64,000 nt of DNA from Eubacteriales bacterium (GCA_045128735.1 JBGVRT010000120.1:48883-112882), one strand, 5' to 3'; positions 7,462 through 60,593 are shown, counted from the first letter of the stretch. Made by a program: numbers and translations. Notes: generated by a model from the sequence alone, not told the origin.

Positions 7462-7479
7462 TTGATAAGGAGAAACAGC

Positions 7480-11070: not shown

Positions 11071-11079
11071 TAAATTTTA

Positions 11080-11794: not shown

Positions 11795-11944
11795 TTAAGG
11801 GAGAAACAGGTATAAAGCAAATAAGCTTGCCCGTCAAAAGTTGTAATAAATTTAATGTTTATATATCAACCTCGACGTGCGCTTACAGAAGATGCTTTTG
11901 AGTACCAATGAATTCATGCAAATTTAATGAAGGAGGGAAGAACA

Positions 11945-12415: not shown

Positions 12416-12431
12416 TAAGGAGACCTGATAT

Positions 12432-42158: not shown

Positions 42159-42178
42159 TCCCCAAGGAGGAGAAAATA

Positions 42179-43021: not shown

Positions 43022-43025
43022 GATT

Positions 43026-43817: not shown

Positions 43818-43844
43818 TAAATTATTTGAAAGGAATTACATAAA

Positions 43845-45050
43845 ATGAAAAAGATTAAGCTTGGTATTATCGGTATTGGTAATATGGGTACAACCCATAT
43901 GAAGAATATCCTTGCAGGCAAGTGCCCTGAGATCGACGTTACTGCTGTTGCAGATATCGATCCCGCAAGACTTGAGGCAGCAAAGGGCTTCTATAACGAG
44001 GCTAAGGAAAAGAATTCCGAACTTCCCGAGGTTGCTTACTTTGACGATGCTATCAAGATGATGGAGTCGGGGCTTGTTGACTCTGTTATCGTTGCTATCC
44101 CTCACTACGATCACCCCAAGTACGTTATCGAGGCGTTCAAGCACGGTCTCCACGCTATCAGCGAGAAGCCCGCAGGTGTTTACACACTTCAGGTTCGCGA
44201 GATGATGGCTGAGGCTGATAAGCATCCCGACCTTGTATTCGGTATGATGTTCAACCAGAGAACAAACCACGTTTTCCGCAAGATGAAGGAAATCATCGCA
44301 AGCGGCGAGCTTGGAGAGATAAAGAGAACAAGCTGGATCATCACAAACTGGTACAGACCCCAGTATTACTATGATTCGGGTGCATGGAGAGCAACCTGGA
44401 GCGGAGAAGGCGGCGGCGTTCTTCTTAACCAGTGCCCTCATAACCTTGACCTTTGGCAGTGGATTTGCGGTATGCCCGCAAAGATCGATGCGAAGATCAA
44501 GTACGGTAAGTGGCACGATATCGAGGTTGACGACGACGTAACTGCATACGCAGAGTACGCAAACGGTGCAACAGGTACATTTATCACATCTACAGGTGAT
44601 GCTCCCGGTACAAACCGTTTTGAGATTATCTGCGATGGCGGTAAGCTTGTTTGTGATGATGCAAAAACACTTAAAATGTGGAAGAACGAAGTTCCCGAAT
44701 CCGAATTCTCCAAGACAACAAAGTTTGCTTTCAGCAGTCCTAAGTGCACTGTTGTTGACGTTGAGACAGACGGTGAGAACCTTCAGCACGTAGGCGTATT
44801 CAACAAGTTCGCAGCAGCAGTTCTTCGCGGCGAACCCCTTGTTGCAGACGGACGTGAGGGTATCAACGGACTTTCTATCTCCAACGCTATGCACCTTTCT
44901 TCTTGGCAGGGCAGAGAGGTTTCGCTTCCTCTTTCCGCTGAGGACGAAAAGGAATTCTACAACGAGCTTATGGAGCGCGTAAAGACTTCCAGACGCAAGG
45001 AGAATGTTTCTTCTTCTGTCGCTGATACTTCTTCCAGCTACAATAACTAA
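43845..45050 (+). CDS. Gfo/Idh/MocA-family NAD(P)-dependent oxidoreductase
   Basis: N-terminal Rossmann motif KLGIIGIGNMG, 401 aa. Confidence 0.85.
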   Translation: MKKIKLGIIGIGNMGTTHMKNILAGKCPEIDVTAVADIDPARLEAAKGFYNEAKEKNSELPEVAYFDDAIKMMESGLVDSVIVAIPHYDHPKYVIEAFKHGLHAISEKPAGVYTLQVREMMAEADKHPDLVFGMMFNQRTNHVFRKMKEIIASGELGEIKRTSWIITNWYRPQYYYDSGAWRATWSGEGGGVLLNQCPHNLDLWQWICGMPAKIDAKIKYGKWHDIEVDDDVTAYAEYANGATGTFITSTGDAPGTNRFEIICDGGKLVCDDAKTLKMWKNEVPESEFSKTTKFAFSSPKCTVVDVETDGENLQHVGVFNKFAAAVLRGEPLVADGREGINGLSISNAMHLSSWQGREVSLPLSAEDEKEFYNELMERVKTSRRKENVSSSVADTSSSYNN

Positions 45051-45102: not shown

Positions 45103-45134
45103 AAAAAATCCAACTCTTACGAGTTGGATTTTTT
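45103..45134 (-). terminator. terminator directly after tRNA-Arg
   Basis: AAAAAATCCAACTC-ttac-GAGTTGGATTTTTT; symmetric, so potentially bidirectional. Confidence 0.8.
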
Positions 45135-45210
45135 GGCACGGCGTAAGGGATTCGAACCCCCGACCTTTTGGTTCGTAGCCAAACACTCTATCCAGCTGAG
45201 CTAACGCCGC
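45134..45210 (-). tRNA. tRNA-Arg (anticodon ACG)
   Basis: Minus strand reads GCGGCGTTAGCTCAGCTGGATAGAGTGTTTGGCTACGAACCAAAAGGTCGGGGGTTCGAATCCCTTACGCCGTGCCA. It folds as a 77-nt cloverleaf (7/4/5/5-bp stems, G1-U72 wobble), with anticodon loop CTACGAA, T-loop TTCGAAT and an encoded CCA. Confidence 0.9.
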
Positions 45211-45429: not shown

Positions 45430-46218
45430 ATGAACATTTTAGTTTGTGTTAAGCAAGTGCCGGGTTCAAATAACGTTGAGGTGGATCCCGTTACAGGCGT
45501 GCTCAAGCGTAACGGAATACAGAGTAAAATCAACCCTTACGATTTGTACGGCATTGAGACAGCGTTGGTGCTTGCCGAAAAATACGGCGGAAGCGTTGAG
45601 AGCATTACAATGGGACCACCTCAGGCAAAGGCCGTTATTGAGGAGACTGTTTGTATGGGCGTAAAGTGCGGAACGGTTTTGACTGACCGAAAGTTTGCGG
45701 GCGCGGACGTGCTTGCAACCGCCTACACACTTTCCCAGGGAATAAAAAAGTGCGGAGAATACGACCTTATTATATGCGGTAAGCAGACCACCGACGGAGA
45801 TACTGCGCAGGTAGGCGCAGAAGTTGCCGAATATCTCGGTCTGCCTAACCTTTCAAACGTTCTCTCTGTAGACGACCTTAAGGACGGCAGACTGTACGTT
45901 ACCGCAAGCCTGGACGATAAGGTTGTAAAAATGAGCGTTGCCATGCCTTGCCTTATTTCGGTTGATGGTGATATCAATACCCCACGTCTGCCCTCGTATA
46001 AAATTAAAAAACAGCTTAGCGAGGATGCAGTAAAATTCATTACCTTTGCCGATTTTGACGACCAAAACGCAGACCACTACGGTCTTACGGGCTCGGCTAC
46101 GCAGGTTGAGCGCATATTCCCGCCCGAAAAGAACGAGCAGAAGGTCAACGTGACGGGTGACGCCGAAAAGCAGTCGGACGAGCTTGTTGCCTTGCTTCGC
46201 GGAAAGAAAATAATATAA
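45430..46218 (+). CDS. etfB: electron transfer flavoprotein subunit beta
   Basis: MNILVCVKQVPG...NPYDLYGIETAL, 262 aa. Confidence 0.92.
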   Translation: MNILVCVKQVPGSNNVEVDPVTGVLKRNGIQSKINPYDLYGIETALVLAEKYGGSVESITMGPPQAKAVIEETVCMGVKCGTVLTDRKFAGADVLATAYTLSQGIKKCGEYDLIICGKQTTDGDTAQVGAEVAEYLGLPNLSNVLSVDDLKDGRLYVTASLDDKVVKMSVAMPCLISVDGDINTPRLPSYKIKKQLSEDAVKFITFADFDDQNADHYGLTGSATQVERIFPPEKNEQKVNVTGDAEKQSDELVALLRGKKII

Positions 46219-46231
46219 GGAGGACGGAAGA

Positions 46232-47419
46232 ATGGGAAAGCTTGTTATAAATCATAATCTTGTAACGCCCGAAAAGGCGGAAGCCCTTGTAAAAATCTGT
46301 CCTTTTAACGCTATTACCTATGAAGGTGGAAAAATTGATATAACCTCTGCCTGCAAGATGTGTAAAATGTGCGTCCGTAAGGGCGGAGGCCTTGTTGACT
46401 ACGTTGAGGAAACGACAAACGAGATAGATAAATCGCAGTGGAATGGAATATGCGTATACGCCGATTGCGCGGGCGGAAAGATTCACCGCGTAACCTTTGA
46501 GCTTTGCGGAAAAGCTAAGGAGCTTGCGGCAGTTACCGGTCACCCCATATACGCTATACTTATCGGTCACAACGTAAGTGAAAACGCAAGCGAGCTTCTT
46601 CGCTACGGCGTTGATAAGGTGTTCGTTTACGACGCACCCGAGCTTGCCGAGTTCAGAATTGAGCCCTACACTGCGGCATTCTGTGACTTTATCGAGAAGG
46701 AAAAGCCCTCGTCTATTCTCGTGGGCGCAACCAATCTCGGACGTCAGCTTGCACCGAGAGTTGCGGCGCGTTGCCGCACGGGACTTACGGCTGACTGTAC
46801 CGTTCTTGAAATGAAGGAAAACACCGACCTTGTGCAGATTCGTCCCGCATTCGGCGGCAACATTATGGCGCAGATAATCACGCCCAACACAAGACCCCAG
46901 TTCTGTACCGCAAGATATAAGGTGTTTACCGAGCCAAAGCCTGTTGATAATCCCAATGGCGAAATTGTGAAAATGACAGTTACGACAAAGATGCTTGAGT
47001 CGGCAATCGAGGTTATTTCCACTTCAGATAAGCCCAAGGATATAGATATTGCCGAGGCTGATGTTATCGTTGCGGTTGGACGCGGAGCCTCAAGCGAGGC
47101 TATGCGCGCGCAGGCTAAGGAGCTTGCTGACCTCTTGGGCGGTGTTGTTGCCTGCACAAGACCGATGGTTGAGAGCAATATTTTTGACGCTAAGCGACAG
47201 ATAGGACTTTCGGGCAGAACAGTAAAGCCCAAGCTTATAATCTGCCTCGGTATATCGGGCGCGGTTCAGTTTGCCGCGGGTATGAAGTCGTCGGATTGCA
47301 TAGTTGCAATAAATAGCGATGAAAAAGCACCTATATTTGACGTGGCACACTATTGCGTGGTGGGCGACGTTAATGAGATTGTTCCTAAGCTTATAAATAA
47401 AATAAAGGGGGATAAGTGA
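46232..47419 (+). CDS. etfA: electron transfer flavoprotein subunit alpha with N-terminal ferredoxin-like Cys cluster
   Basis: CPFNA...[12 protein letters not shown]-terminal domain, plus the ETF-alpha C-terminus [12 protein letters not shown]. Confidence 0.9.
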
Positions 47420-48813
47420 TGTATAATAAGGTAACAGAAAAAGACCTGGCGGCGCTTAAGGCTATCGTCGGGGAAAGCGAAGTTCTTTTTGGGAACGAAA
47501 TAAATCACGATTATTCCCACGATGAGCTCGGCGGCATCGAGAAAATGCCCGAGGCGCTTGTCCGCGTTCATTCTACAGAGCAGGTTTCCGAGGTTATGAA
47601 GCTTGCCTATGAGCGCAATATTCCGGTAACCGTAAGAGGAAGCGGAACGGGGCTTGTAGGCGCGGCAGTTGCGGTTGAAGGCGGAATTCTGCTTGAGACT
47701 ACCAAGATGAATAAGATCCTTTCGCTTAATAAGGATACGCTTACGGTAACTGTTCAGCCGGGCGTACTCCTTATGGAGCTTGCGGCGTTTGCCGAGGAAA
47801 ACGACTTTCTTTACCCGCCCGACCCCGGTGAGAAATCGGCGACAATCGGCGGAAATATCTCCACAAACGCGGGCGGAATGAGAGCCGTCAAGTACGGAGT
47901 AACAAGAGATTACGTACGTTCGCTTACCGTGGTAATGCCAAACGGAGAAATTCTCACTCTTGGTGCAACGGTTGCAAAAAACAGCTCGGGTTATAGCCTT
48001 AAAGACCTTGTTATCGGTTCAGAGGGAACGCTTTGTATTATCTGCGAGGCGGTGCTCAAGCTTGTTCCTCTGCCTAAGGTTTCGGTAAGCCTTCTCGTGC
48101 CCTTCAAGGATATGAAAAGCGCAATCGAGGCTGTTCCGAAGATTATCTGCACTAAGGTAACTCCCACAGCTATCGAATATATGTCGCGCGACACCATTCT
48201 TTTCTCTGAGGATTATCTCGGAAAGAAATTCCCCGATACAAAGAACGACGCATATATTCTTCTTACCTTTGACGGCAATACCGATGCACAGGTCGAGCAG
48301 GATATGAGCATTGTTGCTAACCTTTGCCTTGAGATAGGCGCGCTTGACGCGTATATCGTGGATACAGAGGAGCGCAAAAAGTCGGTCTGGTCCGCGCGCG
48401 GTGCATTCCTTGAGGCGATAAAGGCGTCAACTACCGAAATGGACGAGTGCGACGTTGTGGTTCCCGTAAACAAGGTGGACGAGTTTATCAAATATACCCA
48501 CGCTCTTGCCGATAAGTACGGCGTGAGAATTCCCAGCTTCGGTCACGCGGGCGACGGAAATCTTCACGTTTATATCTGCCGCGACGGGCTCGAACAGGAT
48601 AAGTGGGAGACTACACTTGCATCTTGCTTTGACGATATGTACCGCAAAGCCGAGGAGCTTGGCGGACTTGTATCGGGCGAGCACGGCATAGGCTACGCTA
48701 AAAAAGAATTCCTTGAAAAGCAGTACGGCGAAACGCCTATCGCACTTATGCAGGGAATTAAAAAGACCTTTGACCCCAAAAACATTCTCAATCCGGGAAA
48801 GGTCTGCTTCTGA
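47416..48813 (+). CDS. FAD-binding GlcD-like oxidoreductase (LctD-type lactate dehydrogenase candidate)
   Basis: [15 protein letters not shown] (PCMH FAD domain) and [14 protein letters not shown]. Overlaps etfA by 4 nt. Confidence 0.85.
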
Positions 48814-48821
48814 TAAAACCA

Positions 48822-48860
48822 AAAGGGGCTGTGCTCTTAACGAGCCTGCCCCTTGTTCTA
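48822..48860 (+). terminator. terminator after the dehydrogenase gene
   Basis: AAAGGGGC...GCCCCTT stem with an inner GCTC/GAGC pairing, then a T-rich tail. Confidence 0.6.
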
Positions 48861-49097
48861 TTTGCGCTATGTGCTCCTTGGGCGATTGCGCCGGCGGTAA
48901 TTTGTACGGTTATAATAATCTTATAACGTTGACCTTGCTATGGGATGTAGTAATATATTTCAAGAGCAATTCTTTTAGTGTGGGTCTACGGAGCGTGGAA
49001 TGTGAGTGTGGTAATTCTTTTGCTAATTCCACAAAAAAAGGGTTTACAAAAGAGAAAAAATGTTGTATCATTAAGATAGAATGCAAGGAGGTATGAT

Positions 49098-50312
49098 ATG
49101 AACTCAAAAGCAATAGGCGCTACCATAGCGGCGTACAGAAAGAAAACAGGGTGCACCCAGGCAGAGCTTGCGGAAAAGCTTAACATAAGTAATAAGACTG
49201 TAAGCAAGTGGGAAAACGGTCAGGGCTACCCTGACATTGTACATCTTCCTTTACTTGCAAAGTGTCTCGGTGTAAGTGTTGACGACCTTCTTTCGGATAA
49301 AAAAAGCGGAATCGTCGTGGCGGGAAATATTATACTTGACGTGGTAAAGACCATAGATAAATATCCCGAGCAGGGAATGCTCGGTTACGTGTCCTCGTCC
49401 ACAAAGGCAATCGGAGGATGCGCTCCAAATACCGCAACAGACCTCGCGGTTATCGACAGCACAATTCCCGTGTCGGTTATCGGTAAAATAGGAGACGACG
49501 AATACGGACGATTTCTGCTTGAAAAGCTCCGCGCAAAGGGCGTAGACGTTTCCGAGGTAAAGGTTTCCAAAACAAGCAACACAAGCTTTACCGACGTAAT
49601 GAGTCTTGCCACGGGTGAGCGTACCTTCTTCAACTATAAGGGCGCAAACGCCGAATTTTCTCCCGAGGATATAGATCTGGCATCGCTCCGCTGCAAGATA
49701 CTTCACATAGGCTACATACTTCTGCTTGATATGTTTGACCGCGAGGATAAGGAATACGGCACGGTAATGGCAAGATTCTTAAGCGAGGTGCGCGCACTCG
49801 GTATAAAAACCTCGGTGGACGTTGTAAGCAGTAGTAACGCTGAAGAATATAAGGCTAAAATCTTGCCCGCGTTGCCTTATACCGACTACCTTATAATAAA
49901 CGAGACCGAAGTGTGCACCACTTGGGGGCTTGACCCAAGACACGCAGACGGAAGCCTTAACGTTGAAGCTATTAAGCTTGCTATGGAGAAAACTATGGCG
50001 GCAGGCGTGGGTGAAAAGGTAATAATCCACGCAAAAGAGGGCGGCTTCTGCCTCGATAAGAACGGAAGCTTTACAAAGATAGGCTCGCTGAAAATCCCCG
50101 CAGAGCTTATTGCGGGAAGCGTTGGCGCAGGCGACGCGTTCTGCGCGGGCTGTTTGTACGGTATTTATAACGGATATTCTGATTCCGAGATACTTGAGTT
50201 CGGTTCAGCTTCGGCGGCGTGCAGTCTGTTTTCGGATAACTCGGTTGACGGAATGAAAAATAAAAAGGAAATTCGTAAGCTTTCCGAAAGCTACGAGAGA
50301 AGGGAGATATAA
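49098..50312 (+). CDS. XRE-type HTH domain fused to a PfkB-family carbohydrate kinase
   Basis: The N-terminus TQAELAEKLNISNKTVSKWENGQGYPDI is an HTH_3 signature. The rest is ribokinase-like, with GSVGAGDAFCAG near the C-terminus. RBS GCAAGGAGG. Confidence 0.85.
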   Translation: MNSKAIGATIAAYRKKTGCTQAELAEKLNISNKTVSKWENGQGYPDIVHLPLLAKCLGVSVDDLLSDKKSGIVVAGNIILDVVKTIDKYPEQGMLGYVSSSTKAIGGCAPNTATDLAVIDSTIPVSVIGKIGDDEYGRFLLEKLRAKGVDVSEVKVSKTSNTSFTDVMSLATGERTFFNYKGANAEFSPEDIDLASLRCKILHIGYILLLDMFDREDKEYGTVMARFLSEVRALGIKTSVDVVSSSNAEEYKAKILPALPYTDYLIINETEVCTTWGLDPRHADGSLNVEAIKLAMEKTMAAGVGEKVIIHAKEGGFCLDKNGSFTKIGSLKIPAELIAGSVGAGDAFCAGCLYGIYNGYSDSEILEFGSASAACSLFSDNSVDGMKNKKEIRKLSESYERREI

Positions 50313-50313
50313 A

Positions 50314-51150
50314 ATGCTTGTAAATCTTAATGACGTTCTGCCAAAAGCGCAGAAGGAACACTATGCAGTCGGTCTTTTCAACACCACCGACACAGATATG
50401 CTTGAGGGCGTTATCGCCGCCGCAGAGGAAATGTGCGCACCCGTAATTATAGGAACTGCCGAGGTTCTTCTCCCTTACGGAGAGCTTAAGCTTATTGCTC
50501 CCTCTATAATTGAGGCGGCAAAGCGCGCAACTGTTCCTGTAGTCGTTCACTACGACCACGGACTTACCTTTGACAGATGCATAGAGGCGCTCAAGCTGGG
50601 ATTTTCCAGTATTATGTTCGACGGCTCTGCAAACGACGAGGCGGAAAACCTCAAGCAGACCGCTGAAATGGTAAAAATAGCTCACTCAATGGGCGTAAGC
50701 GTTGAGGGCGAGATTGGTCACGTGGGTCAGGCGGCATCGGGCGACGGTAACGACAGCGATATGTATACCACCCCCGAGGAAGCTGTTAATTTTGTAAATG
50801 CAACGGGAGTTGACGCGCTTGCTATCGCAATAGGAACAGCTCACGGCGCATATAAGACCAAGCCCAAGCTTGACATCGGCAGACTTTCGGAGATTCGCGC
50901 AGCTCTTGACACGCCTCTCGTGCTTCACGGCGGCTCGGGTCTTTCGGACGACGATTTCAGAAATACAGTTAAAAACGGTATCGCCAAGGTTAATATTTTC
51001 ACCGACCTCTGCAACGCAGGCGAAAAGGCTATGCGTCAAGGACTTGACGAGGGTAAGGCATACCTTGATATCAGAAATATGAAGGTTGAAGAAATCAAAA
51101 ACGCCGTAAAGCGTAAAATAGAGCTTTTCGGCTGTGCGGGAAAGGCGTAA
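50314..51150 (+). CDS. class II fructose/tagatose-bisphosphate-aldolase-family protein
   Basis: 278 aa, VVVHYDHG, VEGEIGHVG, LVLHGGSG metal and phosphate-binding blocks. Confidence 0.88.
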   Translation: MLVNLNDVLPKAQKEHYAVGLFNTTDTDMLEGVIAAAEEMCAPVIIGTAEVLLPYGELKLIAPSIIEAAKRATVPVVVHYDHGLTFDRCIEALKLGFSSIMFDGSANDEAENLKQTAEMVKIAHSMGVSVEGEIGHVGQAASGDGNDSDMYTTPEEAVNFVNATGVDALAIAIGTAHGAYKTKPKLDIGRLSEIRAALDTPLVLHGGSGLSDDDFRNTVKNGIAKVNIFTDLCNAGEKAMRQGLDEGKAYLDIRNMKVEEIKNAVKRKIELFGCAGKA

Positions 51151-51154
51151 GATT

Positions 51155-51844
51155 ATGAAAAGAAGCGAAATAAATAAAGCACTTAAAGAACTGGAAGCTA
51201 TGTGCGAGAAATACTCCTGCTATCTTCCTCCTTTTTGCCATTTTACACCCGAGGAGTGGGCAGAGAAGGGTCACGAATACGATGAGGTAAGAGACTGTAT
51301 GCTCGGTTGGGATATCACCGACTTCGGCTACGGCGAATTCGATAAAAAGGGATTCTCGCTTATTACCATCCGCAACGGAAGCCAGAAGGATACCGAGAAA
51401 TATCCCAAGGTATACGCCGAAAAATTGCTTTACCTTAAGGAGGGACAGTATTCTCTCAATCATTTCCATTGGTATAAGACAGAGGACATAATCAACCGCG
51501 GCGGCGGAAATATTCTCATCAGAGTTTATAATTCGCTTCCTAACGAAGAAGTGGATTATGAGTCGGACGTCACAGTTTACACCGACGGACGTTCCTTTAC
51601 CGTTCCCGCAGGAACGCAGGTAAGGCTTACCCCCGGCGAAAGCATTTACGTTTACCGTGGACTCTACCACGATTTTGAGGTCGAGCCGGGTACGGGCGCG
51701 GTGCTTCTCGGTGAGGTCAGCCAGTGCAACGATGATAATAACGATAACCGCTTTGCGGAGCAGAACGCTATCCGATTCTCCGAGATTGAGGAGGATGAAC
51801 CGCCCTACAGACTTCTCTGTAACGAGTATCCCGCGGCAAAATAA
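51155..51844 (+). CDS. D-lyxose/D-mannose-family cupin sugar isomerase
   Basis: HFHWYKTEDIINRGGG cupin block and a ~229-aa length. Start at ATG 51155; the ORF-track GTG 51134 overlaps the aldolase gene. Confidence 0.8.
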   Translation: MKRSEINKALKELEAMCEKYSCYLPPFCHFTPEEWAEKGHEYDEVRDCMLGWDITDFGYGEFDKKGFSLITIRNGSQKDTEKYPKVYAEKLLYLKEGQYSLNHFHWYKTEDIINRGGGNILIRVYNSLPNEEVDYESDVTVYTDGRSFTVPAGTQVRLTPGESIYVYRGLYHDFEVEPGTGAVLLGEVSQCNDDNNDNRFAEQNAIRFSEIEEDEPPYRLLCNEYPAAK

Positions 51845-51854
51845 AACATTAAAA

Positions 51855-51888
51855 AAGGAGCTGACTCGCTAAGAATTCAGCTCCTTTT
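51855..51888 (+). terminator. terminator after the isomerase gene
   Basis: AAGGAGCTGA-N12-TCAGCTCCTT followed by TT. Confidence 0.7.
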
Positions 51889-51951: not shown

Positions 51952-52785
51952 TTAACCGTCAAAATTCTGCAATCTGTCTCTGCCTGCCTGACTTTGACGT
52001 CTGTATTCGGTGGGAGTCATACCAAACTTTTTATGAAAGAATTTTGAGAAATAAAGCCTGTCCTTGAATCCCGATGCCTTTGCGGTCTCGGATATGGAAA
52101 AGCTTGTCTCGCGCAAGAGTGTTTGCGCTTTTTTTATGCGGAAATTGGTTATCGCCTCGCGTATGGATAAGCCCGTATCCTTTTTGAAGCTTCGTTCAAG
52201 ATGGCTTCGGTCAACGTGATATTTTTTAGCTACGTCAGCAACCTTAACCTCCTCGGTATAGTGCGCCGCAATATAGGAAAGTATGTCTGCCGAACGCGCC
52301 GCTTTCAGCTCGGTCTCCTTTTCGCAACTTTCTGCTATTATCGAGATAAGCTCGCAAAGCAGGCTTTTTAAGCGCATTACCTGAGAGGGGGAGGGGCTTT
52401 TTGTCGTTCCGTATATCATATTGAGTATTTCCTCTGCGCGCGCTGTGTCGGCGCATTTTACTATAGGAGATTGAGGGGTTATGCCAAGCCCCTTGAGGAA
52501 AATGTCGAGGTCAGCACTTCCCACGCCCACCCATTTTATAGACCAAGTGCCGTGGGCGCGGTAGTGGTATTCGGTGTCGGGAAACATAACTATAAGGTCA
52601 CCCGCGCCAAAGGAGAGAGTTCTGCCATCCATAAAAAGCGACGCCTCGCCCTCGCGCACAAGGGTTATTATAAAATGAGTACGCTTGACAGGACCGTATT
52701 CGTGGTTGAAGGTCTTTTCGCGCTCGCCCCCAAAATAAAGGTCAACGTTGCATCCGTATTGCTGTGAAAATACTGTTTCTGTCAT
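51952..52785 (-). CDS. AraC-family transcriptional regulator (cupin sensor plus HTH_18)
   Basis: C-terminal ...AKKYHVDRSHLERSFKK...ISETAKASGFKDRLYFSKFFHKKFGMTPTEYR. Start at ATG 52785 behind AGAGGTGA. Confidence 0.88.
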   Translation of the reverse strand: MTETVFSQQYGCNVDLYFGGEREKTFNHEYGPVKRTHFIITLVREGEASLFMDGRTLSFGAGDLIVMFPDTEYHYRAHGTWSIKWVGVGSADLDIFLKGLGITPQSPIVKCADTARAEEILNMIYGTTKSPSPSQVMRLKSLLCELISIIAESCEKETELKAARSADILSYIAAHYTEEVKVADVAKKYHVDRSHLERSFKKDTGLSIREAITNFRIKKAQTLLRETSFSISETAKASGFKDRLYFSKFFHKKFGMTPTEYRRQSQAGRDRLQNFDG

Positions 52786-52802
52786 AATATCACCTCTCTG
52801 TA

Positions 52803-52831
52803 ATAGTACCACAAAAAGTCACAAATGTCAA
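52803..52831 (-). promoter_or_regulatory. promoter of the AraC-family gene
   Basis: Minus-strand TTGACA (52831-52826), 17-nt spacer, TGgTACTAT (-10 at 52808-52803). The spacer contains AAAAAGTCACA (52813-52823, plus strand). Confidence 0.55.
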
Positions 52832-52843
52832 TATATATGCTTC

Positions 52844-52881
52844 AAAAAGCTATACACAATAAAAGACATATGTGCTATAAT
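52844..52881 (+). promoter_or_regulatory. promoter of the dehydratase operon with an abutting AAAAAGCTAT motif
   Basis: AAAAAGCTAT (52844-52853), whose last T is the first base of -35 TACACA (52853-52858); 17-nt spacer; TGcTATAAT (-10 at 52876-52881). Confidence 0.55.
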
Positions 52882-52914
52882 TGAATTGTAATCAATAAAA
52901 AGGGAGAAATTTTT

Positions 52915-54618
52915 ATGGAACATAATTACTCACCCAAATGGAAAAAGAGAGGCGACCGCACAGGACTTATCCGCAACGCGCTTCTTAAATCTATGGGCTA
53001 TACCGACCAGGATATCGAAAAGCCCATCATAGGAATTATAAACACCTGGGCAGAGACCAACCCCGGACATCTGCACTTCAGACAGCTTTCCGAGGCGGTA
53101 AAGCGCGGAGTTTGGGCGGCAGGCGGTTTTCCCCTTGAGGTAAACACCCTTTCTATATGCGAGGTCTTTTTTGACATCTCAAGCCTTGTTTACAGAAATC
53201 TGCTTTCAATAACCACCGAGGAGCTTATCGAGCGTCATCCCTTTGACGGCGTGGTGCTTATCGGCGGATGTGATAAAAACGTGCCTGCTCAGCTTATGGC
53301 GGCTGTGTCGGCAAATAAGCCTACCATTTATCTTCCGGGCGGCGCAATGCTCCCGGGTAACTACAAGGGGCAGACGCTTGTTTGCGGTACGGATAGCTTC
53401 TATCTTTATAACCGCTACACCTCGGGCGAAATAAGCCTTGAGGAGATGACCAAGCACGAGGGCTGTCTCTACGGAAGTGCGGGCGCGTGCCCAATTATGG
53501 GTACGGCAAACACCTGCCAGACGGTTACCGAGGCACTTGGAATCGCGCTTCCTCACTCGGCGTCCTGCCTTGGCGTGTCGGCTGAAAAAATGAGAATAAG
53601 TGAAATGACGGGTAGACAGATAGTTGAGCTTGTACATAAGGATATCAGGTGCAACGATATCATTAACCGCAAGTCGATAGAAAATGCCATTCGCGTGCTT
53701 ATGGCTACGGGCGGCTCTACAAATCTTATTATTCACCTTGTTGCTATTGCCGCAAGAGCGGGAATTAAGCTTGACCTTATGGACTTCGAAAAGATAAGCC
53801 GCGAGACTCCCGTGCTTGTAAACGTAAAGCCTCACGGAACGGGTAACGTGGGCGTAAGCTTCCACGATGCGGGCGGAGTTGCCTCGCTTATGAAGGAGCT
53901 TGAGCCTATGCTCCATACCGAGTGCCTTACCGTGAGCGGTCTTACCGTTGGCGAAAATCTTAAGGACGTTGATATGCCTTACGATACCGATATAATCAGA
54001 CCTCTTGACAATCCTATCGAGGATAAGGGCGGTATTGCCGTGCTTTACGGAAATCTTGCCCCCAAAGGCGCGGTTATCAAGCGCAGTGCGGCAAGCAAGC
54101 ACCTGCTTAACCACCGCGGACCCGCCAAGGTGTTTGAGAGCCTTGAGGAATGTCAGAAATATCTGCTTGATGAAAATTCCGAGGTTACCGCCGACACAGT
54201 GGTAGTGCTTCGCGGCTTCGGTCCTTGCGGTGCACCGGGTATGCCCGAAAACGGTAACTCGATGCCTCTCCCTCCCAAGCTTAAAAAGCAGGGAATCAAC
54301 GACTTTGTAAGAATTACCGACGCAAGAATGTCGGGCGGTTGCTTTGGAACACAGATCCTTCACGTTGCTCCCGAAAGCGCGGTGGGCGGTCCTCTTGCGG
54401 CAGTACGTGACGGCGATATTATTCACCTTGACGTAGACAATAATCTTATAGAGGTGGAGCTTACAGATGAGGAAATAGCCGAAAGACTCAAGAACTTTAA
54501 GCCTAAGCTTCACCCCGATATCAAGCGCGGATTCGTTCGAAACTTTATTGACAACGTAACCCAAGCCGACGAGGGCTGTGATATGAAATATATGCAATAC
54601 GTTCCCGATGAGGAGTAA
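52915..54618 (+). CDS. IlvD/Edd-family dehydratase (sugar-acid dehydratase candidate)
   Basis: 567 aa, IGGCDKNVPAQLMA, ATGGSTNLIIHL, RITDARMSGG. Confidence 0.88.
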   Translation: MEHNYSPKWKKRGDRTGLIRNALLKSMGYTDQDIEKPIIGIINTWAETNPGHLHFRQLSEAVKRGVWAAGGFPLEVNTLSICEVFFDISSLVYRNLLSITTEELIERHPFDGVVLIGGCDKNVPAQLMAAVSANKPTIYLPGGAMLPGNYKGQTLVCGTDSFYLYNRYTSGEISLEEMTKHEGCLYGSAGACPIMGTANTCQTVTEALGIALPHSASCLGVSAEKMRISEMTGRQIVELVHKDIRCNDIINRKSIENAIRVLMATGGSTNLIIHLVAIAARAGIKLDLMDFEKISRETPVLVNVKPHGTGNVGVSFHDAGGVASLMKELEPMLHTECLTVSGLTVGENLKDVDMPYDTDIIRPLDNPIEDKGGIAVLYGNLAPKGAVIKRSAASKHLLNHRGPAKVFESLEECQKYLLDENSEVTADTVVVLRGFGPCGAPGMPENGNSMPLPPKLKKQGINDFVRITDARMSGGCFGTQILHVAPESAVGGPLAAVRDGDIIHLDVDNNLIEVELTDEEIAERLKNFKPKLHPDIKRGFVRNFIDNVTQADEGCDMKYMQYVPDEE

Positions 54619-54630
54619 AGGAGAAAGAAC

Positions 54631-55539
54631 ATGAAAGAAATTAAAGGAATTTGCCCCATAATCGCCACTCCTTTCAAGGAAAACGGCGACGTAGACTATA
54701 AAGGACTTGAAAAGCTTGTGGGCGCGCTTATCGACGGCGGCTGCCACGCGGTAACTCTTTTCGGAATCGCGGGCGAATACTATAAGCTTACCGACGAAGA
54801 AAGAATCAAAATGGCTGAAATAACCATTGACGTATGTAAGAAAAAGGGCGGCACGTCTATTCTTTCTGTTACCGACCACTCAACCGAAATTGCCGCAAAA
54901 CGCGCAAAGCAGTTTGAGGATATGGGTGCGGACTGCCTTATGATGCTTCCGCCTTTCTTCCTTAAGCCGGGCGCCGGCTGGCTTTATGAGCATATGAAGG
55001 CTATCGGTAAGGCGGTAAGTATTCCCGTAATGGCACAGTACGCTCCCGAGCAGACAGGCGTTGCAATAGCTCCCGATATGTTCAAAAAGCTTGGTGCTGA
55101 GTGCCCCAATATTATCTACTACAAAATCGAATGCAAGCCCGCAGGTCCTTACATCACAAATCTTATCAAAATGACAAGCTCCGAGACAACAAAGATATTC
55201 GTTGGTAACGCAGGCTTCCAGCTTATTGAGGCTATGGACAGAGGCGCAATAGGCGCAATGCCGGGTTGCTCGATGTACGACGTCTACCTTGATATCTATA
55301 ATCACTACGTAAACGGCGACCGAGAGGGCGCAATAGAGCTTCACAATAAGATTCTTCCTATGCTCAACCATATCAGACAGAACGTAGAGCAGATAATCAG
55401 CTTTGAAAAGCGCATACTTAAAAAGAGAGGAATAATCGAGTCCGACTACTGCCGTAAGCCCTCTTACGATACCGACGAGTATTTTGATAAGCTCTTTGAG
55501 GAGTTCTACGCGGAGATGGCGGCTCGCTATAATTGGTAA
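54631..55539 (+). CDS. DapA/NAL (dihydrodipicolinate synthase)-family lyase, 2-keto-3-deoxy-acid aldolase candidate
   Basis: 302 aa, PIIATPFKENGDVDYKGLEKLV...GIAGEYYKLTDEER pattern of class I DHDPS-like aldolases. Confidence 0.8.
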   Translation: MKEIKGICPIIATPFKENGDVDYKGLEKLVGALIDGGCHAVTLFGIAGEYYKLTDEERIKMAEITIDVCKKKGGTSILSVTDHSTEIAAKRAKQFEDMGADCLMMLPPFFLKPGAGWLYEHMKAIGKAVSIPVMAQYAPEQTGVAIAPDMFKKLGAECPNIIYYKIECKPAGPYITNLIKMTSSETTKIFVGNAGFQLIEAMDRGAIGAMPGCSMYDVYLDIYNHYVNGDREGAIELHNKILPMLNHIRQNVEQIISFEKRILKKRGIIESDYCRKPSYDTDEYFDKLFEEFYAEMAARYNW

Positions 55540-55541
55540 TT

Positions 55542-56327
55542 ATGGAAAATACTAATAAAACCGCAATAGTAACAGGAGCGGGAACGGGTATAGGCAAGGT
55601 TATAGCCTATGAGCTTGCAAAGGCAGGATACGACGTTGCCGTTCACTGTAACGGAAGCACCGAGGGCGCAAATGAGGTGGCTGAAAAGATACGCTCCGAT
55701 TTTGGCAGAAAAGCTGTTGTCATCAGGTCTAACCTTGCAATGTTTTCGGGAGTTGACGCGCTGTTTGATGAATTTCTCAAGCACTTCGATAGACTTGACC
55801 TTTTCGTCAATAACGCAGGCGTTACAAAGAAATCCAAGTTCCTTGAAACTGAGGAAGAAATGTTTGACCTTATAGTTAACGTCGATTATAAGGGCGCGTA
55901 TTTCTGTATGCAGAGGGCGGCGCGTATTATGAAGGAAAAGGGAATAGAAGGCTCTATTATCCTTATTTCCTCTAATAATGCCAAGGCACATTTTGCCGAC
56001 GTGTCGGTCTACGGCTCTGTAAAAGCGGCTATCCAAAAGGCGGCAGAGCATATGGCTATCGAGCTTGCACAGTATAAAATACGTGTAAATACCGTTGCTC
56101 CCGGCTGGACAGAAACCGGCGCATCCCGACTTGACGATAAGGAGAGCACCTATTATAAAGTGCCCCTTAAGCGCTGGGCGCAGTGCGATGAAATCGCCGC
56201 GGCAATACTCTATCTTTCGAGCGATATGGCAAAGTCCATAACGGGAACTACTCTCGTTATCGACGGTGGCGCGCTCCTTGTTTCCGATAAGGGCGAGCGA
56301 TACGGATATTACAATCCCAAAAACTGA
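55542..56327 (+). CDS. SDR-family oxidoreductase
   Basis: TGAGTGIGK and catalytic YGSVKAA. Start at ATG 55542; the ORF-track TTG 55533 overlaps the previous stop. Confidence 0.82.
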   Translation: MENTNKTAIVTGAGTGIGKVIAYELAKAGYDVAVHCNGSTEGANEVAEKIRSDFGRKAVVIRSNLAMFSGVDALFDEFLKHFDRLDLFVNNAGVTKKSKFLETEEEMFDLIVNVDYKGAYFCMQRAARIMKEKGIEGSIILISSNNAKAHFADVSVYGSVKAAIQKAAEHMAIELAQYKIRVNTVAPGWTETGASRLDDKESTYYKVPLKRWAQCDEIAAAILYLSSDMAKSITGTTLVIDGGALLVSDKGERYGYYNPKN

Positions 56328-56332
56328 ATTAA

Positions 56333-56370
56333 GGGGGCTGTCTCTCTTGAGATAGCCCCTCTCTTTGTTC
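56333..56370 (+). terminator. terminator after the SDR gene
   Basis: GGGGGCTGTCTC-tctt-GAGATAGCCCCT (one G-U pair) followed by CTCTTTGTT. Confidence 0.6.
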
Positions 56371-56373
56371 GGT

Positions 56374-56475
56374 AAATTGGTGTTTAGCGCACTGTGTTCG
56401 CACAAACCGCCTCCTTTGCCCCCCTTTGACAAGGGGGGGGCAAAAGAACGGGGGCTTCCTCGCAAACACCAATTT
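56374..56475. repeat. intact 102-bp palindromic intergenic repeat (MITE/REP-like)
   Basis: 12-bp perfect terminal inverted repeats AAATTGGTGTTT (56374-56385) and AAACACCAATTT (56464-56475). Central G/C hairpin TTTGCCCCCCTT-tgac-AAGGGGGGGGCAAA. Confidence 0.8.
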
Positions 56476-56518
56476 GTTGAAACAGTCTGACGCTTAATAA
56501 GGAAAGCACCTTAATTTC

Positions 56519-56557
56519 GTAAAAAAAGTCATAAACTCGGTAAAAAAAGTCATTGAC
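56519..56557 (+). promoter_or_regulatory. tandem direct repeats GTAAAAAAAGTCAT with 21-bp period
   Basis: DR1 is 56519-56536 and DR2 is 56540-57 (56540-56557). DR2 runs into the -35 TTGACT. Confidence 0.65.
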
Positions 56558-56581
56558 TTTCGTTTTGCCGTATGGTAGAAT
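56553..56581 (+). promoter_or_regulatory. promoter of the GH-like gene
   Basis: TTGACT (56553-56558), 17-nt spacer, TGgTAGAAT (-10 at 56576-56581). Confidence 0.6.
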
Positions 56582-56616
56582 GAAAACAACAAAATACTAT
56601 TTGGGAGGATGCAATA

Positions 56617-60570: not shown

Positions 60571-60593
60571 TATTTACTAAAGGTAGAAAAATT

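What the first reader, a model, noticed from the sequence alone, without database searches (positions are those of the whole stretch)
49098..51844. Compact kinase / class II aldolase / cupin lyxose-type isomerase module for an unidentified rare sugar
The three genes are separated by 1 and 4 nt and bounded by a promoter and a terminator. The implied logic is aldose to ketose (cupin D-lyxose/D-mannose isomerase family), then ketose phosphate (PfkB), then C3 fragments (FBA/tagatose-bisphosphate aldolase family). That is a self-contained catabolic shunt. A class II FBA-family aldolase normally needs a bisphosphate or a 1-phosphate, so the exact intermediates are not obvious (for example xylulose-1-P, or fructose/tagatose/psicose phosphates). 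No transporter is included.
Basis: inference. Interest (0 to 1): 0.55.

Follow-up and report, generated by a model that had tools for sequence, protein, structure and literature searches.

The report
Self-regulated sugar isomerase-kinase-aldolase operon
This is a real three-gene operon, shared by many gut and rumen Clostridia and by E. coli O157, that most likely converts mannose-like sugars to a ketose 1-phosphate and splits it into glycolytic pieces; its kinase carries a DNA-binding domain that probably switches the operon, and none of the steps after the isomerase has been tested.

Summary
Three co-directional genes (49098-51844) are separated by 1 and 4 nt, with one promoter and one terminator.

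A palindrome, TCTAC-N5-GTRGA, lies upstream of this gene here and in 33 of 71 related loci.

The module is conserved:
- Among 80 genomes holding the fused kinase, 59 have the aldolase adjacent and 52 have a cupin lyxose/mannose isomerase. That isomerase is usually the short YdaE type rather than the long Z5688 type found here.
- E. coli O157:H7 has the same triad (37-47% identity) next to an ABC transporter.

Beta- and alpha-mannosidase genes recur beside the module. This points to D-mannose, not a rare sugar.

The best reading is aldose to ketose, then ketose 1-phosphate, then DHAP plus an aldehyde. The supporting evidence:
- The closest characterised kinase and aldolase are the YdjH/YdjI pair, which work through a ketose 1-phosphate.
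- The kinase-aldolase pairing is tight and no phosphofructokinase sits between them.
- The aldolase lacks two of the three residues that bind the distal phosphate in FBP aldolases.
- E. coli keeps a dedicated aldolase for this cluster even though it has its own FBP aldolases.

Nothing here is biochemically proven. It is a new variant of a known kind, of moderate interest.

The parts
48823..48854 (+). Terminator hairpin of the upstream GlcD-like gene. It marks the 5' boundary of the unit.
   Evidence: RNA fold -19.8 kcal/mol, z = -3.4. Sequence read.
48985..48999 (.). Predicted operator O1, the palindrome TCTACGGAGCGTGGA (consensus TCTAC-N5-GT[A/G]GA).
   Evidence: It is the only exact match in the 64-kb window. 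The same palindrome occurs in 33 of 71 upstream regions of orthologous kinases, against 0.075 expected from shuffles. It always lies 106-136 nt before the ATG. It is conserved in the footprint alignment of the closest relatives. Binding by the kinase's HTH is an inference.
49027..49032 (+). TTCCAC, a possible operator half-site next to the -35 box.
   Evidence: Invariant in the alignment of the close clade. In the wider family, a half-site GTAGG is fused to the -35 box as (G)TAGGTTTAC in 46 of 71 loci. This part is an inference.
49043..49071 (+). Sigma-70-type promoter: -35 TTTACA, 17-nt spacer, -10 TATCAT.
   Evidence: Best promoter-like site in the region, 10 of 12 matches. GGTTTAC followed by TATAAT-like boxes is conserved across related loci.
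49086..49091 (+). Ribosome-binding site AGGAGG, 6 nt before the ATG.
   Evidence: Read directly from the sequence.
49098..49301 (+). N-terminal XRE/Cro-C1-type helix-turn-helix domain of the kinase (residues 1-68).
   Evidence: Pfam HTH_3, E 1.1e-14. Five helices at residues 3-65 in the AlphaFold model. Q21, K33, S36, W38 and E39 are invariant in 20 homologues.
49302..50312 (+). PfkB (ribokinase-family) sugar kinase domain (residues 69-404). Predicted ketose 1-kinase.
   Evidence: Pfam PfkB, E 2.8e-35. The GG, N268-E269-x-E271 and G343-A-G-D346 motifs are invariant. The domain is 37% identical to E. coli O157 ECs_5068 and 28% to YdjH. Closest solved structure by sequence is YdjH 3h49. The site of phosphorylation is inferred.
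50314..51150 (+). Class II (zinc) aldolase of the FBA/TBP family. Predicted ketose-1-phosphate aldolase.
   Evidence: Pfam PF01116, E 1.5e-93. D81, H82, E133, H177, H205, K181, S208, N227 and T230 are conserved. Two of the three distal-phosphate positions are changed: Ser49 to Ala and Arg259 to Cys233. The protein is 43% identical to ECs_5069 and 39% to YdjI. It scores below every FBA equivalog cut-off in NCBIfam.
51155..51844 (+). Cupin D-lyxose/D-mannose isomerase of the long Z5688 type.
   Evidence: Pfam Lyx_isomer over its full length, E 1e-94. PDB 3kmh, E 4e-61. It is 47% identical to Z5688/ECs_5070, and the four metal ligands align (H103, H105, E110, H172).
51853..51888 (.). Intrinsic terminator hairpin. 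It is flanked by an A run and a T run, so it could serve both the operon and the convergent AraC-family gene.
   Evidence: RNA fold -18.5 kcal/mol, z = -5.65, no shuffle folds as well. Sequence read.

Best explanation
The three genes are one operon for a short catabolic shunt of the 'isomerase, 1-kinase, aldolase' type.

Step 1. The cupin isomerase converts a free aldose with the D-lyxo/D-manno configuration into the 2-ketose. D-mannose, released by mannosidases, is the most likely substrate, giving D-fructose. D-lyxose, giving D-xylulose, is a possible second substrate.

Step 2. The PfkB kinase phosphorylates the ketose on O1.

Step 3. The zinc aldolase cleaves the ketose 1-phosphate into DHAP plus an unphosphorylated aldehyde. 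From fructose 1-phosphate this would be D-glyceraldehyde. From xylulose 1-phosphate it would be glycolaldehyde.

Control. The kinase is also the regulator. Its N-terminal XRE helix-turn-helix binds the palindrome TCTAC-N5-GTRGA and a half-site beside the -35 box of its own promoter. Sugar binding in the kinase domain relieves repression.

Shown: the operon anatomy; the domain families; intact catalytic and metal residues in all three enzymes; conservation of the kinase-aldolase pair and of an isomerase partner; the conserved palindrome; the mannosidase neighbours.

Inferred: the identity of the sugar; the position that is phosphorylated; the aldolase substrate; that the HTH binds the palindrome; the direction of regulation.
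For: Conservation:
- In 80 genome loci found with the fused kinase, the aldolase is adjacent in 59. That is 83% of the 71 loci with enough downstream sequence to judge.
- A cupin isomerase is adjacent in 52, and all three genes in 43.
- The isomerase is usually a 178-aa YdaE-type protein (PDB 2y0o, E 1e-61) placed between kinase and aldolase. Two isomerase subfamilies therefore fill the same slot.
- No other neighbouring family recurs in more than 9 loci.
- Reciprocally, 23 of 30 metagenome loci found with the aldolase have a PfkB kinase adjacent, and none has a PFK-family gene between them.
- Relatives with 80-81% identical kinases keep the order kinase > aldolase > long isomerase in three different neighbourhoods.

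E. coli counterpart:
- E. coli O157:H7 has isomerase (Z5688, PDB 3kmh), class II aldolase and PfkB kinase side by side. They are 47%, 43% and 37% identical to the window proteins. The triad is present in 411 of 5426 complete E. coli genomes.
- E. coli already has FbaA, FbaB, PfkA and XylB (established knowledge). A dedicated aldolase therefore argues that the kinase product is not a standard intermediate.

Ketose 1-phosphate logic:
- The best solved-structure sequence hits are YdjI for the aldolase (E 1e-56) and YdjH for the kinase (E 2e-18), followed by ketohexokinase.
- RefSeq names YdjH and YdjI as an octuluronate kinase and an octuluronate-1-phosphate aldolase.
- Class II PF01116 aldolases that cleave a ketose 1-phosphate are documented (SqiA, PMC10665668).
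- The aldolase keeps the zinc, catalytic and 1-phosphate residues. In place of the 6-phosphate ligands of FBP aldolases it has Ala49 (52 of 53 family members) and Cys233 (45 of 53; YdjI also has Cys).
- It fails every FBA equivalog cut-off.

Sugar identity:
- GH2 genes lie next to the module in 10 of the 80 genome loci. Their best PDB hit is a proven beta-mannosidase (9nfe, E 6e-130; PMC12770490).
- GH38 alpha-mannosidase genes lie next to it in 2 loci, one genome locus and one metagenome locus.
- In other loci, mannitol-dehydrogenase-family or Zn-ADH genes follow the kinase. These are enzymes that also make fructose or xylulose.

Regulation:
- The HTH is kept in all 120 best homologues.
- The palindrome occurs in 33 of 71 loci against 0.075 expected, at a fixed distance from the ATG. 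It is unique in this window.
Against: - No enzyme of this Clostridial module has been assayed, and no paper in the searchable library describes the kinase or aldolase of the E. coli cluster.
- Twelve loci with ample flanking sequence have the kinase, often with an isomerase or a polyol dehydrogenase, but no aldolase within 4-10 kb. Their kinases are interspersed with triad kinases in the tree. That pattern is easier to explain if the kinase makes fructose 6-phosphate.
- Similarity of the kinase to YdjH is low (28%), and Foldseek does not separate 1-kinases from ribokinases.
- The aldolase keeps Lys181 and an Arg (R254, 45 of 53 members) that may correspond to the third 6-phosphate ligand, Arg280'. 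A probable Bacillus-type FBP aldolase (7ncc) also lacks Arg at the 259 position. The residue argument is therefore suggestive only.
- No enzyme for the aldehyde product and no transporter are encoded in the module.
- The main palindrome lies about 55 bp upstream of the -35 box, which is unusual for a simple repressor.
Confidence: 0.55

Rival explanations
1. Canonical specificities. The isomerase makes fructose from mannose. The PfkB enzyme is an ordinary fructokinase that makes fructose 6-phosphate. The aldolase is a normal, perhaps the housekeeping, fructose-1,6-bisphosphate aldolase fed by a phosphofructokinase encoded elsewhere. The operon then simply groups a feeder route with a glycolytic step.
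For: - Twelve loci have the kinase with or without an isomerase but no aldolase nearby.
- In the first three relatives inspected, glycolytic or gluconeogenic genes (PGK, TIM, iPGM, GAPDH, PEPCK) lie within 5 kb.
- The aldolase retains all catalytic residues, Lys181 and a possible Arg280' equivalent.
- PfkB-family fructokinases exist, for example PDB 3hj6, a weak hit.
- No second aldolase was seen in the 64-kb window.
Against: - No PFK gene lies between or beside kinase and aldolase in more than 100 loci, although the two genes are often translationally coupled.
- E. coli O157 carries a dedicated aldolase in the homologous cluster despite having FbaA and FbaB (established knowledge).
- The aldolase fails all FBA equivalog cut-offs and has Ala49 and Cys233 at 6-phosphate positions.
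- Fructokinase structures score lower than YdjH and ketohexokinase.
- The link to glycolytic genes is not general: no such neighbour family recurs in more than 5 of 80 loci.
- A housekeeping aldolase placed under a sugar-specific promoter and operator would be odd.
Confidence: 0.22
2. The chemistry is the same, but the physiological sugar is a pentose. D-lyxose is converted to D-xylulose, then to D-xylulose 1-phosphate, then to DHAP plus glycolaldehyde. This would be a natural counterpart of the engineered xylulose-1-phosphate pathway.
For: - The characterised relatives are named D-lyxose isomerases (3kmh, 2y0o, 7nzo).
- In E. coli O157 a mannose route would be redundant with the mannose PTS and ManA, whereas K-12 has no native D-lyxose route (established knowledge).
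- The Mannitol_dh and Zn-ADH families seen next to the kinase include D-arabinitol and xylitol dehydrogenases, which make D-xylulose (established knowledge).
- Xylulose 1-phosphate has the same 3S,4R configuration as FBP.
Against: - D-lyxose is rare in nature.
- The glycosidases that recur beside the module are mannosidases, not pentosidases.
- Nothing that handles glycolaldehyde is in the module.
Confidence: 0.13
3. The true substrate is an unusual D-manno-configured sugar: a 6-deoxy sugar (D-rhamnose), a heptose (glycero-manno-heptose giving a heptulose), a uronate as with YdjH/YdjI, or a sulfosugar as in sulfoglycolysis. The pathway would still give DHAP plus a longer or charged aldehyde.
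For: - YdjI and YdjH are the best PDB sequence hits. As annotated, they act on an eight-carbon uronate.
- The aldolase shares the Cys at position 233 with YdjI.
- Hybrid sulfo-EMP clusters combine PF00294 kinases with PF01116 aldolases (PMC10665668).
Against: - There is no sulfoquinovosidase, sulfolactaldehyde reductase or dehydrogenase, exporter, or ydjJ/K/L-type dehydrogenase or transporter in the window or among recurrent neighbours.
- Identity to YdjH and YdjI is only 28% and 39%, lower than to the E. coli O157 pair.
- Sulfoquinovose isomerases belong to other families, PF07221 and PF02952.
Confidence: 0.06

Closest known systems
E. coli O157:H7 cluster Z5686-Z5688 (Sakai ECs_5068-5070); the isomerase Z5688 is solved as PDB 3kmh/3mpb
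   Same: All three proteins are homologous and adjacent. The long cupin isomerase is 47% identical, the class II aldolase 43% and the PfkB kinase 37%. Among the references compared, the aldolases are each other's best match.
   Different: - The gene order is isomerase-aldolase-kinase.
- The E. coli kinase has no HTH domain.
- The cluster includes an ABC transporter (ECs_5071-5073), a response regulator and a hybrid histidine kinase.
- Only the isomerase carries a specific name, in PDB and RefSeq. The kinase and aldolase carry generic names.
E. coli K-12 YdjH/YdjI (L-glycero-L-galacto-octuluronate kinase and octuluronate-1-phosphate aldolase)
   Same: A PfkB kinase and a PF01116 aldolase are encoded side by side and act in sequence through a ketose 1-phosphate. 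They are the best PDB sequence hits for both window proteins. The Cys at the Arg259 position is shared.
   Different: Identity is only 28% and 39%. The ydj cluster has dehydrogenases and MFS transporters and no cupin isomerase. Its annotated substrate is an eight-carbon uronate.
Sulfoglycolytic EMP pathways (YihS/YihV/YihT; class II sulfofructose-1-phosphate aldolase SqiA)
   Same: The logic is isomerase, then a kinase making the 1-phosphate, then an aldolase giving DHAP plus an aldehyde. SqiA is a PF01116 enzyme that cleaves a ketose 1-phosphate. Hybrid clusters use a PF00294 kinase (PMC10665668). PDB 8q58 and 8q57 are hits for the window aldolase.
   Different: The isomerases belong to other families (PF07221 or PF02952). 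No sulfoquinovosidase, sulfolactaldehyde enzyme or exporter is present here. SqiA keeps Arg259 and loses Arg280', which is the opposite pattern to the window aldolase.
L-rhamnose (RhaA/B/D) and L-fucose (FucI/K/A) catabolism; mammalian fructolysis (ketohexokinase plus aldolase B)
   Same: The three-step (or two-step) logic is the same, ending in DHAP plus an unphosphorylated aldehyde (established knowledge). Ketohexokinase is a PfkB-family member and ranks just after YdjH and a putative IolC-type kinase (2qcv) among the kinase's PDB hits.
   Different: The enzymes are not homologous: FGGY kinases, AraD-type class II aldolases or class I aldolase B, and non-cupin isomerases. The sugar configurations also differ.
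Bacillus subtilis YdaE and Thermofilum D-lyxose isomerases (PDB 2y0o, 7nzo)
   Same: In most related loci the isomerase slot is filled by this short type, E 1e-61 to YdaE.
   Different: The window itself uses the long Z5688 type. The genomic partners of YdaE were not examined here.
B. subtilis IolC/IolJ (5-dehydro-2-deoxygluconokinase and a class II FBA-family aldolase)
   Same: This is another PfkB kinase plus PF01116 aldolase pair. It phosphorylates the hydroxyl next to a keto group and then releases DHAP (established knowledge). The IolC model is the kinase's top NCBIfam hit.
   Different: The score of 88 bits is far below the cut-off of 300. There are no other inositol catabolism genes in the operon.

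Membership tests
PfkB / ribokinase-family carbohydrate kinases (PF00294) | Profile match over the whole domain and a ribokinase-like fold | tested here: met
   Pfam E 2.8e-35 over residues 72-381. AlphaFold model pLDDT 89.6. Foldseek TM 0.84-0.90 (normalised to target) to ribokinases, YdjH and YihV.
PfkB / ribokinase-family carbohydrate kinases (PF00294) | Catalytic motifs: the GG dipeptide, the NxxE motif and the GAGD anion hole with the catalytic Asp | tested here: met
   G106-G107, N268-E269-x-E271 and G343-A344-G345-D346 are invariant in 20 homologues. The protein is therefore probably an active enzyme and not only a regulator.
Ketose 1-kinases within PfkB (YdjH, ketohexokinase, YihV) | Phosphorylation of O1 of a free 2-ketose | not testable with these tools
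   Only ranking evidence is available. YdjH (69.5 bits) ranks above a putative IolC-type kinase (53), ketohexokinase (52), ribokinase (50) and fructokinase (41). Foldseek does not discriminate.
XRE / Cro-C1 helix-turn-helix regulators (PF01381) | Five-helix HTH_3 domain | tested here: met
   Pfam E 1.1e-14 over residues 10-64. Helices at 3-17, 21-28, 32-39, 47-57 and 61-65 in the model.
XRE / Cro-C1 helix-turn-helix regulators (PF01381) | Binding to a palindromic operator at the regulated promoter | tested here: inconclusive
   The conserved palindrome TCTAC-N5-GTRGA lies upstream of the gene in 33 of 71 loci, against 0.075 expected, and is unique in the window. Binding itself is untested.
Class II (metal-dependent) FBA/TBP aldolase family (PF01116) | Full-length profile match, the three His zinc ligands, the catalytic Asp and Glu, and the 1-phosphate pocket | tested here: met
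   Pfam E 1.5e-93. D81, H82, E133, H177, H205, K181, S208, N227 and T230 are conserved in 46-53 of 53 family members.
Fructose-1,6-bisphosphate aldolase proper (isofunctional group) | Score above a curated equivalog cut-off | tested here: not met
   The best FBA equivalogs score 289.8 against a cut-off of 396 and 270.8 against 343. Only the broad subfamily model TIGR00167 (ketose-bisphosphate aldolase) is passed, at 264 against 215.6.
Fructose-1,6-bisphosphate aldolase proper (isofunctional group) | The 6-phosphate ligands Ser49, Arg259 and Arg280' (H. pylori numbering, PMC10665668) | tested here: inconclusive
   Ser49 is replaced by Ala (52 of 53 members) and Arg259 by Cys (45 of 53). An Arg (R254) may correspond to Arg280'. 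The 7ncc protein, a probable FBP aldolase, also lacks Arg259, so the test is not decisive.
D-lyxose/D-mannose isomerase family (PF07385, Z5688 type) | Full-length profile match and the four metal ligands of Z5688 (H103, H105, E110, H171) | tested here: met
   Pfam E 1e-94 over positions 1-222 of 222. H103, H105, E110 and H172 align with the Z5688 ligands. The identity of the ligand residues comes from established knowledge of 3kmh.
D-lyxose/D-mannose isomerase family (PF07385, Z5688 type) | NCBIfam equivalog LyManIsomGneg cut-off | tested here: not met
   259.1 bits against a cut-off of 350. By its name (LyManIsomGneg) the model appears built for Gram-negative proteins, so this lowers the equivalog claim and not the family membership.
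E. coli O157 Z5686-Z5688-type catabolic cluster | Homologous isomerase, aldolase and kinase encoded adjacently | tested here: met
E. coli O157 Z5686-Z5688-type catabolic cluster | Linked ABC sugar transporter and two-component regulator | tested here: not met
   None is present in the window operon or among the recurrent neighbours of the 80 Clostridial loci. Regulation is instead built into the kinase.
Sulfoglycolysis (sulfo-EMP / sulfo-EMP2) | Sulfoquinovosidase, a YihS-type or PF02952 isomerase, a sulfolactaldehyde reductase or dehydrogenase, and an exporter in the cluster | tested here: not met
   No such genes lie next to the operon or recur in related loci.
Classical D-lyxose route (isomerase plus FGGY xylulokinase to xylulose 5-phosphate) | A xylulokinase partner and no aldolase | tested here: not met
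   The partner kinase is PfkB-type, and an aldolase is linked in 59 of 80 loci. The only FGGY gene nearby is an AraB ribulokinase 7 kb downstream.

The most novel reading that the evidence does not exclude
Gut and rumen Clostridia, and about 8% of E. coli, may possess a bacterial counterpart of mammalian fructolysis. In this reading, free mannose and fructose (and perhaps lyxose and xylulose) are funnelled through a ketose 1-phosphate that a dedicated class II aldolase splits, bypassing phosphofructokinase. In Clostridia the pathway would be governed by a one-protein 'trigger enzyme', a catalytically active kinase that is also the operon's DNA-binding repressor and senses the sugar in its own active site.
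Probability: 0.35. Interest if true: 0.6.

Novelty: new variant of a known kind. Interest (0 to 1): 0.42.

Why it matters
The kinase and aldolase of this module are annotated only generically ('helix-turn-helix domain-containing protein', 'ketose 1,6-bisphosphate aldolase'). Yet the module occurs in at least several hundred species-level genomes of gut and rumen Clostridia and in the O157 lineage of E. coli.

If the ketose 1-phosphate reading is right, three things follow:
- It defines how many fibre-degrading anaerobes use the free mannose left by mannan and glycan breakdown.
- It supplies natural enzymes for the fructose-1-phosphate and xylulose-1-phosphate routes that metabolic engineers now build from human ketohexokinase and aldolase B.
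- It adds a clear, testable case of an enzyme-repressor fusion with a predicted operator.

If the canonical reading is right, the finding is routine sugar metabolism.

Tried and rejected
- I recalled that the sulfo-EMP2 pathway uses a cupin isomerase and a PfkB kinase. Reading PMC10665668 showed that it uses PF02952 and PF00365 proteins. Only the aldolase family and the general logic are shared.
- I considered a PfkB-type 6-phosphofructokinase (Pfk-2) paired with FBA. The kinase matches the 1-PFK/hexose-kinase models only over its C-terminal 100 residues, at 46 bits, so this is unlikely.
- The first three relatives inspected all had glycolytic genes nearby, which suggested a CggR-like glycolytic regulator. 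Clustering of all neighbours in 80 loci showed that no such family recurs in more than 5 loci. I dropped this as a general feature.
- I looked for further copies of the operator in the window, to find a regulon or a transporter. There is only the one exact site. A one-mismatch site at 60573-60587 is within chance expectation.
- Foldseek of the AlphaFold model against the PDB gives ribokinases, YdjH and YihV with similar scores (TM 0.84-0.90). It does not discriminate specificity, and it finds no solved structure of the fusion.
No paper on the kinase or aldolase of this cluster type or on an XRE-PfkB fusion was found. The 2010 paper on Z5688 is not held.

Full report
**The observation.** The window holds three + strand ORFs at 49098-50312, 50314-51150 and 51155-51844. 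Pfam assigns them as follows:
- HTH_3 plus PfkB for the first (E 1.1e-14 and 2.8e-35);
- class II F_bP_aldolase for the second (E 1.5e-93);
- Lyx_isomer for the third (E 1e-94).

The gaps are 1 and 4 nt once the isomerase is started at the ATG at 51155. This start is correct because its MKRS N-terminus aligns with residue 1 of E. coli Z5688. A promoter, TTTACA-17-TATCAT, lies at 49043-49071 and is the best site in the region at 10 of 12 matches. AGGAGG lies 6 nt before the ATG. A strong hairpin at 51853-51888 (-18.5 kcal/mol, z -5.65) ends the unit, and the preceding gene has its own hairpin. The description is therefore accurate. The omission is that the kinase carries an N-terminal XRE-type helix-turn-helix domain. 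The identical protein sits on a Logan contig (SRR25030128). Its relatives are uncultured Clostridia (Acutalibacteraceae, Oscillospiraceae and others) from human, ruminant and other animal guts.

**Is the triad conserved?** I scanned one genome per species with an alignment of the fused kinase. More than 566 stretches encode relatives, and the best 80 loci were kept. The tblastn results were as follows:
- The aldolase lies directly downstream in 59 loci.
- The long isomerase is present in only 2 loci. In most loci, however, a gap of about 540 nt between kinase and aldolase encodes a 178-aa cupin. This is the short D-lyxose isomerase type (B. subtilis YdaE, PDB 2y0o, E 1e-61; Thermofilum 7nzo).
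- Counting both isomerase types gives 41 loci with kinase > short isomerase > aldolase, 2 other full triads, 16 with kinase > aldolase, 9 with kinase > isomerase, and 12 with the kinase alone.
- Nine of the 21 loci without an aldolase end within 2.6 kb of the kinase. The aldolase is therefore adjacent in 59 of 71 determinable loci.

All-against-all clustering of 902 neighbouring ORFs found no other family in more than 9 loci. The module is thus a self-contained unit in changing surroundings, without a transporter. Relatives with 80-81% identical kinases keep exactly the window's order (kinase, aldolase, long isomerase) in three other contexts. I ran the reciprocal test by scanning metagenome contigs with an aldolase alignment. 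Of 30 loci with enough flanking DNA, 22 have a PfkB kinase adjacent by tblastn and one more by Pfam. None has a PFK-family gene in between. The kinase-aldolase pair is therefore the core, and the isomerase is a frequent feeder.

**The E. coli counterpart.** In E. coli O157:H7 Sakai, ECs_5070 is Z5688, the crystallised D-lyxose isomerase 3kmh. It is followed by a class II aldolase (ECs_5069) and a PfkB kinase (ECs_5068). These lie downstream of an ABC transporter and between a response regulator gene and a hybrid histidine kinase gene. The window proteins are 47%, 43% and 37% identical to these three. The window kinase is far closer to ECs_5068 than to YdjH, at 194 against 93 bits. The window aldolase and ECs_5069 are reciprocally closest among the references compared. 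The E. coli triad is in 411 of 5426 complete genomes. RefSeq names its parts 'carbohydrate kinase family protein', 'ketose 1,6-bisphosphate aldolase' and 'D-lyxose/D-mannose isomerase'. As a gene cluster the finding is therefore not new. I found no paper on the kinase or aldolase in the library.

**Which phosphate ester?** Several results point to a ketose 1-phosphate.
- The best solved-structure sequence hits are YdjI for the aldolase (E 1e-56) and YdjH for the kinase (E 2e-18). Next for the kinase come an IolC-like kinase and ketohexokinase. RefSeq annotates YdjH and YdjI as an octuluronate kinase and an octuluronate-1-phosphate aldolase.
- Class II aldolases of the same Pfam family cleave sulfofructose 1-phosphate (PMC10665668), and those structures are also hits.
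- That paper lists the 6-phosphate ligands of H. pylori FBP aldolase as Ser49, Arg259 and Arg280'. HMMER alignments, and a family alignment of 53 aldolases from the related loci, place Ala49 (52 of 53) and Cys233 (45 of 53) at the first two positions. YdjI also has Cys there, and ECs_5069 has Ala and Ser. An Arg (R254, 45 of 53) may match the third. All zinc, catalytic and 1-phosphate residues are kept.
- The aldolase is below every NCBIfam FBA equivalog cut-off.
- E. coli already owns FBP aldolases, phosphofructokinases and xylulokinase (established knowledge). It nevertheless keeps a dedicated aldolase in the homologous cluster.
- Kinase and aldolase are tightly paired in more than 80 loci, with no PFK between them.

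Together these favour the reading that the kinase product is the aldolase substrate, a ketose 1-phosphate. This is an inference. The residue argument is weakened because a probable Bacillus-type FBP aldolase (7ncc) also lacks Arg at position 259.

**Which sugar?**
- GH2 genes lie beside the module in 10 of 80 genome loci. They are directly downstream of the aldolase in 7 loci (with three tandem copies in L058) and directly upstream of the kinase in 2. Their best PDB hit (9nfe, E 6e-130) is CapGH2b, a biochemically confirmed beta-mannosidase from a mannan utilisation locus. Next come DtMan and BtMan2A.
- GH38 alpha-mannosidase genes flank the module in L069 and L115.
- In other loci the kinase is followed by Mannitol_dh-family or zinc-ADH genes instead of, or as well as, the isomerase.

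All these partners deliver free mannose or make a D-threo 2-ketose (fructose or xylulose). D-mannose to D-fructose is therefore the most likely entry, with D-lyxose to D-xylulose as a plausible side activity or alternative. Both fructose 1-phosphate and xylulose 1-phosphate have the 3S,4R configuration that FBA-type aldolases cleave (established knowledge). 'Rare sugar' is not the best description.

**Regulation.** The HTH-PfkB architecture is found in all 120 best homologues, and the HTH residues are as conserved as the kinase motifs. The kinase motifs GG, NExE and GAGD are invariant, so the protein is probably an active enzyme as well. AlphaFold gives a confident model (pLDDT 89.6) with a five-helix HTH joined by a 5-residue linker to a PfkB fold. 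No PDB entry covers both domains.

In the 220 nt upstream of 71 orthologous kinase genes, the palindrome TCTAC-N5-GT(A/G)GA occurs in 33. Shuffles give a mean of 0.075 and a maximum of 2. A looser form occurs in 47 against 5.4 expected. The site always lies 106-136 nt before the ATG. The window copy, TCTACGGAGCGTGGA at 48985-48999, is the only exact match in 64 kb. The -35 box is embedded in a conserved (G)TAGGTTTAC motif (46 of 71 loci), which contains a GTAGG half-site. In 10 loci a TCT(A/G)C half-site lies exactly 23 nt upstream of it, and in 3 loci a full palindrome overlaps the -35 box. In the window's clade a conserved TTCCAC lies at 49027-49032. I infer autoregulation by the HTH of the kinase, with the sugar sensed by the kinase domain. 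Binding, the direction of control and the role of the distal site are untested.

**What argues against the best reading.**
- Twelve loci with ample sequence lack any aldolase near the kinase, and their kinases are interspersed with triad kinases in a neighbour-joining tree. If the kinase made fructose 6-phosphate these genomes would need nothing more. If it makes a 1-phosphate they need an aldolase elsewhere, which I could not check.
- No gene for the aldehyde product is in the module.
- Similarity to 1-kinases of known function is low.

I therefore give the ketose 1-phosphate shunt 0.55, the canonical fructokinase-plus-FBA reading 0.22, a pentose (xylulose 1-phosphate) version 0.13 and an exotic-sugar version 0.06.

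**Verdict.** The module is a Clostridial variant, with an HTH-fused kinase and no transporter, of a cluster already present and partly characterised in E. coli O157. It follows the well-known isomerase, 1-kinase, aldolase logic. It is widespread yet biochemically untested and easy to test, so interest is moderate (0.42).

Noticed in passing
window 45430-48813: EtfB, EtfA (with a Cys-rich N-terminal extension) and a GlcD-like FAD oxidase sit in a row. This is the gene trio typical of Etf-dependent lactate (or glycolate) dehydrogenases. The same trio lies upstream of the fused kinase in L004.
   Followed up: partly
window 51952-58542: An AraC-family regulator (minus strand), an IlvD/EDD-family dehydratase (nearest to L-arabinonate dehydratase), a DapA-like aldolase, an SDR and a GHL6/GH42M protein form what looks like a non-phosphorylative pentonate (Dahms/Weimberg-like) module. 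In L092 the triad is followed directly by araB and a DUF4886 gene, so this block seems to have been inserted between them in the window.
   Followed up: partly
window 58951-61313: An AraB L-ribulokinase (passes the NCBIfam equivalog cut-offs) and a DUF4886 protein. A one-mismatch copy of the operator palindrome lies in the 23-nt gap between them (60573-60587), but this is within chance expectation.
   Followed up: partly
window 41331-45050: An SDR, two xylose-isomerase-like TIM-barrel proteins (AP_endonuc_2) and a Gfo/Idh/MocA oxidoreductase (weak IolG similarity). This is another small sugar or cyclitol oxidoreductase cluster of unknown substrate.
   Followed up: no
window 45134-45210 (minus strand): A tRNA-Arg(ACG) gene lies between the oxidoreductase cluster and the etf genes.
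   Followed up: yes
window 53206-54879 (minus strand): A 557-aa ORF lies antisense to the dehydratase gene. Other long antisense ORFs lie opposite real genes, for example 43836-44894. They are almost certainly not genes, and they show that ORF length alone is unreliable in this genome.
   Followed up: no
L058 12642-19944; also L005, L030, L045, L052, L074, L075: GH2 beta-mannosidase-like genes lie directly downstream of the aldolase. L058 has three tandem paralogues. GH29 fucosidase genes (L004, L010) and a GH20 gene (L080) also abut the module, which hints at glycan (N-glycan or mannan) foraging contexts.
   Followed up: partly
L072 3853-4896 and L080 9947-10999: Two close relatives of the kinase lack the HTH domain (347-350 aa) although they keep the aldolase. 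The fusion has therefore been lost or was never gained in some lineages, as in E. coli.
   Followed up: no
window 3679-14516 and 17013-18197: Housekeeping genes (two very large ORFs at 3679-11070 that look like rpoB and rpoC, an EF-G-like gene, a MetK-like gene) show that the window is chromosomal core and not a mobile element. These were identified by eye from N-terminal sequence only.
   Followed up: no
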